Source: Minisyncoccia bacterium
GTDB taxonomy: Bacteria; Patescibacteriota; Minisyncoccia; Phycocordibacterales; UBA918
Direction of reading: 5' to 3'
Assembly (NCBI GenBank): GCA_964229335.1
Contig: CAXRCZ010000008.1
Coordinates: forward strand, 1-60,187
DNA: 60,187 nucleotides
Shown here: positions 33,105 to 43,488 of the stretch, one piece after another
Layout: each line of letters begins with the position of its first letter
Numbering within the stretch: the first letter of the stretch is position 1
The notes under the pieces: generated by a model
The model's database searches: none
What the model was told of the DNA's origin: nothing
The model's input: only the letters and a program-made list of their open reading frames with translations
Position numbers and translations under genes: made by a program

Positions 33105-33177
33105 GGGCCGTTAGCTCAGCTGGTAGAGCGCTTCCATGGCATGGAAGAGGCCGCAGGTTCAAGTCCTGTACGGTCCA
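33105..33177 (+). tRNA. tRNA-Ala (GGC), CCA not encoded
   Basis: Cloverleaf GGGCCGT..ACGGTCC-A with G3:U70 pair; anticodon arm CTTCC-ATGGCAT-GGAAG; T-loop GTTCAAGTC. Confidence 0.97.
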
Positions 33178-33391
33178 CATATACAATGAGCCGAGAGCGA
33201 AAGCTCTCGGCGATTATGTATATGTAGGGACGTACAGGACTTGAAAGACGGAAGCGGTATACAAGACGAACGTAGTGAGTGCTTGTCGCTGAGTCGGGGT
33301 CGCGAACTCGACTGTAAGGAGAGATTCGTGACCGAGTCCTGATATATATTTAACTAAAATAAGTTGGTGACCGTCAGGACAAGTCCTGTAC
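33158..33391. mobile_element. Structured tRNA-3'-associated element (inverted plus direct T-arm copies); non-autonomous element or ncRNA
   Basis: 33158-33172 is perfectly complementary to 33231-33245; CAAGTCCTGTAC is directly repeated at 33160-33171 and 33380-33391; nested hairpins lie between. Confidence 0.55.
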
Positions 33392-33638: not shown

Positions 33639-33833
33639 GATTTGTCTTCCCTACTTCTTCCAGTCTTCAATAACTAATGATTGACCTTTTTTCTTTACCA
33701 CCACTTTTTGATTGTCACGCCAGCCGAGTTCTCTAACAAATTCAATTGGCAGAGTGATTTTATAACTAGTTGCTGACTTGCCAATTTTTCGTATATTTCT
33801 CTCCTCTAATGATTTTCGAGCCATAGTACGTAC

Positions 33834-42681: not shown

Positions 42682-43488
42682 TTAGTTAGCCAGCCGCTCC
42701 ATTTCGTTTACCAGTTCTGAGAGCTCAGTCATTGCTTTGACGTAAAAACCAGCTGCTCCGAGACTCTTGGCTCGCTCCTTATCATCAGCTTCGTCACGAT
42801 TAGTAAAGATAATGACTGGTATGTCTTTTAGTCCGGGGTCTTTTTTTACCATCTCCAAAAGATCCAAACCACTACATTCCGGCAACATGATATCTAGAAT
42901 GATTATGTCTGGTTTAAAGGCGCGTACTCCTTCTATAAAATTACTCCCATTGAGTGAAAACTCACAGGTGAAACCACTGTCTGTGAATTTCGTAGCCAGT
43001 AAATTACGTAGTAAAGAATCGTCTTCTACGATATACACTTTTAATGTGCCATCGGCTTTTTTACTTGGGCTTGGAGTAATATCAATAGTATTGGCTCCAG
43101 CGTTATTGTCAGATTCACCAAATATACTGCGGATTTTTTGATGCCATATTTCATCTGAATCTTTTGGTGAAATATAGTCAGTAACACCGGCCATCAAAAT
43201 ATTCTCTGCCGCCTCGATACTACTCTCTACAACAGCGACAATGGGTAGATTATTGACTGACCGCTCTTCTTGTAACTGAAGTAGATATTGCTGACAAACA
43301 GACTCATCTTCACTACAACCAATGATTAGCAAATCTGTCTGATTTTCCTCAAGTTGGTCTGCCGTTAGGTTAGATAAGATATCATCCTTTAGAAGCGCAC
43401 CTTGGGTATGTAGATACTCTGTAACCTCCTTCAGTAGCGCGGTAGTTTCTCCTGCGACCATCACCTTTTTTCCTTTTAGTAGGGACAT
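42682..43488 (-). CDS. Response regulator with tandem receiver domains (N-terminal one degenerate), no output domain
   Basis: C-terminal REC: IVEDD, PDIIILDIMLP, IPVIIFTN, FYVKA; N-terminal REC-like TDLLIIG. Confidence 0.85.
   Translation of the reverse strand: MSLLKGKKVMVAGETTALLKEVTEYLHTQGALLKDDILSNLTADQLEENQTDLLIIGCSEDESVCQQYLLQLQEERSVNNLPIVAVVESSIEAAENILMAGVTDYISPKDSDEIWHQKIRSIFGESDNNAGANTIDITPSPSKKADGTLKVYIVEDDSLLRNLLATKFTDSGFTCEFSLNGSNFIEGVRAFKPDIIILDIMLPECSGLDLLEMVKKDPGLKDIPVIIFTNRDEADDKERAKSLGAAGFYVKAMTELSELVNEMERLAN

What the first reader, a model, noticed from the sequence alone, without database searches (positions are those of the whole stretch)
33158..33391. Structured element on the tRNA-Ala(GGC) 3' end carrying an antisense copy and a direct copy of the T-arm
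Seen: tRNA T-arm/acceptor sequence TTCAAGTCCTGTACG (33158-33172) pairs perfectly with 33231-33245. Inside are ACATATACA/TGTATATGT and a GCCGAGAGC-GAAA-GCTCTCGGC stem, giving an ~88-nt hairpin that would compete with the tRNA cloverleaf in a read-through transcript. A second module (33235-33341) is bounded by CAGGACT...AGTCCTG and holds nested stems (ACAAG..CTTGT, GGTCGCGAA..TTCGTGACC). A direct repeat CAAGTCCTGTAC (33380-33391) closes the unit like an attR site. No integrase or nuclease is nearby. Inference: a non-autonomous element that targets tRNA T-arms, or a cis RNA switch controlling tRNA maturation. I do not recognise it as a named family.
Basis: partly seen in the sequence, partly recalled or inferred. 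Interest (0 to 1): 0.8.

Follow-up and report, generated by a model that had tools for sequence, protein, structure and literature searches.

The report
Retargetable mini-element behind tRNA genes
Behind this alanine tRNA gene of an ultra-small bacterium sits one copy of a widespread, uncatalogued family of about 170-base folded elements that carry a mirror-image and a direct copy of their own tRNA's tail; they are likely tiny mobile DNAs moved by an enzyme that is still unidentified.

Summary
The repeats are real and belong to a family; this scan noted the same family before on other DNA. One core sits behind at least five tRNAs of this genome and at 116 GTDB stretches; every title that names a group names Patescibacteria. 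The antisense arm tracks each copy's own tRNA (4.6 of 6 unconstrained bases pair, against 2.0 shuffled, n=97; replicate 4.8, n=50). The direct repeat is a sharp 19-base duplication, tRNA positions C56-C74. The closest tRNA-Ala(GGC) orthologues are mostly empty. Hairpin tips are GNA mini-hairpins on one strand only (129 of 192, against 4 on the other strand), pointing to single-stranded DNA. Perfect arms go with broken duplications (rho -0.35 and -0.40). Corrections: this element's own duplication is 33333-33341, and 33380-33391 ends a second, deleted element. Best reading: a non-autonomous mobile element whose arm pairs with its target; an RNA switch is unlikely. No enzyme was shown. A 79-aa GIY-YIG cassette at tRNA/tmRNA ends is a weak candidate. 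No Rfam match, and no paper in five searches.

The parts
33105..33178 (+). tRNA-Ala(GGC), intact; T55=33159, C56=33160, C74=33178
33160..33178 (+). Sense arm: the 19 bases C56-C74 that the family duplicates
   Evidence: identity 0.78-1.0 inside, 0.00-0.06 at -1/-2, 0.52-0.60 at +19
33177..33225 (+). Hairpin H1 (outer 9-bp stem, inner 9-bp stem with GAAA loop at 33190-33211), continuous with the sense/antisense stem
33226..33245 (+). Antisense arm; perfect over 33231-33245; G33243 pairs with C56 and the last two A pair with T55/T54; C56-to-core distance 84 nt, the family's modal value
33247..33295 (+). Hairpin P2, the conserved class-A core, tipped by a 2-bp stem with a GTA triloop (33270-33276)
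   Evidence: five base pairs kept in 183-192 of 192 copies, four with compensatory changes
33298..33333 (+). Hairpin P3 (GTA triloop at 33312-33318) ending in the right junction motif at 33328-33332
33333..33341 (+). This element's own target duplication, truncated at 9 of 19 bases, one mismatch
   Evidence: inference from family anatomy
33342..33379 (+). Remnant of an older sister element (class D), mostly deleted; right-end motif 33365-33379
   Evidence: L208, L216, L222 end in the same motif at tRNA-Ala(GGC), L208 with a full 19-base duplication
33380..33391 (+). Target duplication of the sister element, truncated at 12 of 19 bases

Best explanation
This is one copy of a non-coding element family that sits behind tRNA and tmRNA genes of Patescibacteria between two copies of the gene's last 19 bases, and it is likely a non-autonomous mobile element that moves as folded single-stranded DNA with an enzyme supplied in trans. 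Shown: the unit runs from C56 of the T-loop through a long hairpin of about 84 nt (tRNA tail, H1, antisense arm), then two conserved hairpins (P2, P3), to a fixed junction followed by the tail again. The same core occurs at different tRNAs with arms that match each host. Sites are empty, filled or stacked in sister species. Inferred: the top strand folds when single-stranded, and a nicking enzyme cuts target and element at T55^C56 and at the P3 junction. The antisense arm pairs with the target tail and so sets the site. Only products that leave the host tRNA tail intact survive, so a copy can land on a new tRNA with a partly matching arm, and the arm is later matched by template switching. Copies with a perfect arm and an intact duplication would excise cleanly and be lost. 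The window's copy, with a near-perfect arm and a truncated duplication, would be a stranded one.
For: Arm covariation: 4.6 of 6 WC pairs against 2.0+-0.12 shuffled, 97 copies, 66 distinct tails; 4.8 against 2.04+-0.19 in 50 new metagenome copies. Fixed length: 80-90 nt in 92 of 97. Sharp 19-base duplication in 50 of 76 and 27 of 50 copies. All 5 closest core pairs (score >=0.8, among 76 copies) lie at different tRNA tails. Of 28 tRNA-Ala(GGC) orthologues, 16 have no element, 6 a T-loop sister element and 6 an element cutting at the tRNA end; none has this core (classed by eye). Tandem and stacked copies exist. GNA triloop tips in 129 of 192 copies, 4 on the opposite strand, 15.8+-3.6 shuffled, GNRA tetraloops only 12. 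Such mini-hairpins are described as extraordinarily stable in DNA, with the RNA counterparts considerably less stable (PMC13037366, passages). Arm perfection is anticorrelated with duplication integrity: rho -0.35 (n=91), -0.40 (n=50), pooled -0.31 (n=121). Template switching homogenises inverted-repeat arms (PMC8604942, passages).
Against: No enzyme is linked. No mobile-element gene recurs among the 22 largest ORF clusters from 110 flanks. Y1 genes were not found in 25 of 61 genomes, among them element-rich G010, G037 and G041. The candidate GIY-YIG clade was not found in this genome at E<=1e-20. No excised circle or empty allele was seen, but only contigs were available. The 19-base boundary could reflect selection on the tRNA, not the cut geometry. 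Cores of copies with truncated duplications are no more decayed than the rest (p=0.23), which does not support 'older copies have perfected arms'. The 2x2 test in the replicate was not significant (p=0.25). G-T wobbles exceed A-C only 52 to 30. Copies are related, so p-values overstate.
Confidence: 0.7

Rival explanations
1. Passive relics: remains of integrase-type islands or products of replication slippage at tRNA ends, with arms made by template switching and no dedicated mobiliser.
For: Islands split tRNA genes and leave a displaced 3' fragment (PMC4383910, passages). Larger islands do insert at these loci. No partner enzyme was found.
Against: A conserved core with compensatory pairs, fixed geometry, the same junction at many kinds of tRNA and at tmRNA, and near-identical cores at different tRNAs need a repeated, specific process. 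The junction lies inside the T-loop (T55^C56).
Confidence: 0.12
2. Cis RNA switch or processing signal: in the read-through transcript the arm sequesters the T-arm and controls tRNA maturation.
For: As RNA, the long hairpin beats the cloverleaf in 33105-33250 (-79.2 against -61.1 kcal/mol). The folded strand is the tRNA's sense strand.
Against: The cloverleaf stays the best fold in prefixes up to 122 nt, before the arm is made. A terminator-like hairpin precedes the arm (weak T-tail). Most close orthologues lack any element and others carry different classes. A switch does not explain the 19-base duplication or the stacking. The tips are DNA-type triloops.
Confidence: 0.08
3. RNA-intermediate element: the arm is a primer-binding site for the tRNA's 3' end, as in LTR retroelements (recalled), and a reverse transcriptase in trans copies the transcript back next to the gene.
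For: The arm covers positions 54-74, about the span of a primer-binding site (sequence). The element lies on the transcribed strand.
Against: No reverse transcriptase among the largest flank clusters (genomes were not searched for one). Copies always sit at the cognate gene in fixed register. DNA-type tips.
Confidence: 0.08

Closest known systems
IS200/IS605 elements (IS608) and their ORF-less derivatives; REPs of RAYT Y1 transposases
   Same: Strand-specific hairpins, likely single-strand movement, target set by base pairing with an element-internal guide. In IS608 the guide AAAG lies 5' of the left-end hairpin foot (PMC5027513, passages), and an AAAG precedes P2 here.
   Different: The pairing is 11-19 bases, lies mainly 3' of the cut and differs from copy to copy. 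A 19-base duplication is present. No TnpA/RAYT link: the Y1 genes seen have their own unrelated palindromes and do not track element number across families (rho 0.13).
Tyrosine-integrase genomic islands at tRNA/tmRNA genes (Islander; T-loop/junction sites)
   Same: Restored tRNA plus displaced 3' fragment; tandem arrays at one site (PMC4383910, passages).
   Different: About 170 bases, no integrase gene, an antisense arm, and one core used at many tRNAs. The junction is inside the T-loop, not at its edge as a 7-bp overlap would need (overlap rule recalled).
Folded single-strand recombination sites (integron attC, CTX-phage attP; recalled, lead from e1-7055155)
   Same: A long imperfect hairpin with bulges rebuilds a duplex copy of the target on one strand.
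   Different: No XerC/D or IntI binding sites were tested or seen. The target is a variable tRNA tail. No dedicated recombinase nearby.
IS110 bridge RNA (PMC11208160, search listing only)
   Same: The idea of an element-encoded, reprogrammable sequence that base-pairs with the target.
   Different: No IS110 recombinase was looked for or seen in the flanks. The evidence points to DNA, and the guide stays next to its target.

Membership tests
IS200/IS605 or PATE/REP (Y1 HUH) | Strand-specific subterminal hairpins | tested here: met
   GNA tips 129 against 4 of 192; top strand folds better as DNA (-51.4 against -44.7 kcal/mol)
IS200/IS605 or PATE/REP (Y1 HUH) | Ends shared with a TnpA/RAYT-encoding element | tested here: not met
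   four Y1 loci printed have unrelated or no palindromes; no co-occurrence across families
IS200/IS605 or PATE/REP (Y1 HUH) | Insertion 3' of a fixed 4-5-base target without duplication (partly recalled) | tested here: not met
   19-base duplication (it could be element-borne, so 'works like' is not excluded)
IS200/IS605 or PATE/REP (Y1 HUH) | Active strand on the lagging-strand template | tested here: inconclusive
   folded strand G-rich in 39 and C-rich in 19 of 76 copies, confounded by tRNA gene orientation; no control
Tyrosine-integrase island at tDNA | Restored tRNA plus displaced 3' fragment | tested here: met
Tyrosine-integrase island at tDNA | Integrase gene within the island | tested here: not met
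   the genome's one PF00589 gene lies on another contig
Rfam structured RNA family | Match at the gathering score | tested here: not met
   only tRNA, tmRNA and one group I intron reach it
Cis-regulatory tRNA trailer / switch | Conserved at the orthologous gene | tested here: not met
   0 of 28 orthologues carry this core, 16 carry no element
Cis-regulatory tRNA trailer / switch | Read-through transcript and effect on maturation | not testable with these tools
   no RNA holder listed
tRNA-primed retroelement | Associated reverse transcriptase | not tested
   none among the largest flank clusters; genomes not searched for PF00078

The most novel reading that the evidence does not exclude
A self-reprogramming, DNA-guided mobile system. 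A minimal (about 80 aa) GIY-YIG nickase, or another small enzyme, takes its specificity from a 17-19-base antisense arm in folded single-stranded DNA. The arm is rewritten to match each new host gene after insertion, so one core can colonise almost any tRNA or tmRNA gene. L446 and L437 would be gene-bearing members.
Probability: 0.25. Interest if true: 0.9.

Novelty: new variant of a known kind. Interest (0 to 1): 0.68.

Why it matters
About a third of the tRNA genes of this streamlined genome carry such duplications (12 of 35), and the generic signature occurs in 56 of 61 relatives. It is a major, apparently undescribed class of non-coding DNA in Patescibacteria. If the arm is a working guide, it is a natural, very compact programmable insertion system that leaves essential genes intact. 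The junctions mapped here (T55^C56, T70^C71, P3 end) make it testable with oligonucleotides and one small protein. It also explains false tRNA introns and duplicated tRNA ends in annotations of these genomes.

Tried and rejected
Rfam: no family. Viral contigs: 0 matches for two patterns. Plasmids and phages: no match. Reads: no RNA holder listed; three DNA runs of one study, contigs only, no joints, so no evidence either way. Flank clustering: 833 ORFs from 110 loci, the 22 largest clusters being housekeeping genes or frames over the element. A LAGLIDADG-like frame (motif recalled) breaking P2 in L196 is a single case. Serine recombinases are in 4 of 5 genomes, and the one read, beside tRNA-His, shows no element structure. 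Y1/RAYT: rejected as a demonstrated partner. GIY-YIG cassette: 10 of 34 loci are followed by a family right end (by eye), about the base rate of 12 of 35, so no enrichment; gene count tracks element count across 24 families (rho 0.55, p 0.005) but not within the genus (0.17). The same pollution and double-strand counting affect to a lesser degree. GC-skew test inconclusive. The first P2 pair count used a faulty expression and was replaced. Literature searches for the family gave 0 papers or unrelated listings; subscription journals are largely missing, and no supplements were read.

Full report
Observation. Rfam gives nothing but tRNA at its gathering scores. The neighbours are ordinary: an AcrB-family transporter and a D-Ala-D-Ala ligase, and UvrC- and UvrA-like genes (names recalled).

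It is a family. BLAST of the region finds the same core behind tRNA-Asp, -Ser and two -Arg genes of this genome. Of 35 distinct tRNA loci (the mirrored half of contig C7, one spurious call and one contig-end tRNA left out), 8 have an antisense copy and 12 a direct copy that fit their own tail best. The core was found in 14 of 61 genomes, this one included, at 116 stretches of GTDB genomes whose titles, where they name a group, name Patescibacteria, and at 119 metagenome stretches. It was not found in viral contigs, phages or plasmids. A looser signature that also catches sister classes is in 56 of 61 relatives, with 1 control hit (it can match tandem tRNAs). Earlier notes of this scan describe the same family on other DNA. 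I had written my reading before seeing them and count them as leads only.

Anatomy. Of 146 copies, 103 unique ones had a T-loop 35-110 nt upstream, and 97 of these paired at 7 or more of 12 positions. At positions my search pattern did not constrain, the arm pairs with its own tRNA at 4.6 of 6 bases against 2.0 after shuffling hosts. Fifty usable new metagenome copies (of 82 new; 23 without an adjacent matching T-loop, 9 too short) give 4.8 against 2.0. The distance from C56 to the end of the arm is 80-90 nt in 92 of 97. Where the direct copy is well kept (50 of 76; 27 of 50), identity to the tRNA is high over exactly 19 bases, C56 to C74, and falls to near zero just before C56. Five base pairs of hairpin P2 hold in 183-192 of 192 copies, four of them with compensatory changes; the 3' strand was not in the search pattern (22 of 214 copies lacked the closing strand). 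Most copies without an adjacent tRNA are stacked behind newer elements or islands. Sister classes cut at T70^C71 with a 4-base duplication.

This locus. The class-A copy ends at the junction 33332/33333, and its duplication (33333-33341) is cut short. What follows is the right end of an older sister element, recognisable from L208, L216 and L222, with its own truncated duplication at 33380-33391. Among 28 tRNA-Ala(GGC) orthologues from the genus, 16 carry no element, including the seven closest in sequence, 12 carry sister classes, and none carries this core (by eye). That is insertion polymorphism, not a conserved regulator.

DNA or RNA. P2 tips are 2-bp stems closed by GAA, GGA, GTA or GCA in 129 of 192 copies, against 4 on the other strand and 15.8 in shuffles; GNRA tetraloops occur in 12. 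GCGNAGC mini-hairpins are described as extraordinarily stable in DNA, and the RNA counterparts as considerably less stable (PMC13037366, abstract start and passages). I infer that the working form is the top strand as single-stranded DNA. As RNA, the long hairpin would outcompete the cloverleaf only once the arm is made.

How retargeting may work. Young-looking copies with a perfect duplication often have an imperfect arm, and copies with a perfect arm often have an abruptly truncated duplication (rho -0.35, n=91; -0.40, n=50). Arms of 15 or more of 17 occur in 20 of 34 truncated against 20 of 64 intact copies. Two readings fit. The arm may be inherited from another tRNA and matched later by template switching, a known route to arm homogenisation (PMC8604942, passages). 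Or perfect copies with intact ends excise and vanish. Core decay does not differ between the groups, which favours survivorship. Both imply that arm pairing matters for movement. The closest cores sit at different tRNAs, so retargeting happens. These steps are inferred; no intermediate was seen (contigs only).

The enzyme is not identified. Flanks hold no recurrent mobile gene. Y1 genes have their own repeats and do not track the elements. A clade of 79-aa GIY-YIG genes, nearest in PDB to a UPF0213 protein and SLX1, sits directly behind tRNA/tmRNA 3' ends (ARAGORN-called in 25 of 34 loci). It has a left arm that closes at the same CCAC as the end-cutting class and has GNA-tipped hairpins. In L446 it lies inside a complete T-loop element with an exact 19-base duplication, and in L437 its stop codon abuts a family right end. 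But only 10 of 34 are followed by a family right end, near the base rate, and the clade was not found in this genome. GIY-YIG number tracks element number across 24 families (rho 0.55) but not within the genus. I give it about 25%.

Comparison. It works most like IS200/IS605 single-strand transposition, where an internal guide pairs with the target (PMC5027513, passages), and it looks like a miniature tDNA island (PMC4383910, passages). It fails membership of both: no shared ends with a Y1 element, a long variable arm, a duplication, no integrase. Five literature searches found no description.

Verdict. Real, widespread, probably mobile, apparently undescribed; mechanism partly inferred, enzyme open. 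New variant of a known kind (non-autonomous structured mobile DNA), categorically new if the arm proves to be a rewritable guide. Interest 0.68.

Noticed in passing
G000:C7 (whole contig, 126,716 bases): The contig is identical to its own reverse complement, an assembly mirror that doubles its genes.
   Followed up: yes
L018:245-513 (G000:C6, about 42944-43212): Group I intron (RF00028, 67.6 bits) inside a tRNA-Met(CAT) gene, followed by an element of the same superfamily.
   Followed up: partly
L426-L447, L449-L460: A cassette with a 79-aa GIY-YIG gene and a covarying folded left arm directly behind tmRNA and tRNA 3' ends, with no fixed right end; not found described. It merits its own study.
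   Followed up: partly
L372, L406, L407, L174; L172 (G000:C4, about 21100): Other small GIY-YIG genes with a short palindrome sit between duplicated first 15-25 bases of tRNA genes, or of a gapA-like gene start.
   Followed up: partly
L199:496-5967 (G037:C2): A methylase-bearing cassette (restriction-modification-like, recalled motifs) lies between two copies of the element at tRNA-Glu and is bounded by a perfect 245-base inverted repeat.
   Followed up: partly
window 33651-33824, minus strand: A 57-aa frame resembling AbrB-type regulators (likeness recalled) between the two tRNA-Ala genes, below the ORF cut-off.
   Followed up: no
L196:1586-2029 and about 2323-2605: A LAGLIDADG-like frame (motif recalled) interrupts P2 of one copy, and a nearby tRNA appears to hold an intron.
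   Followed up: no
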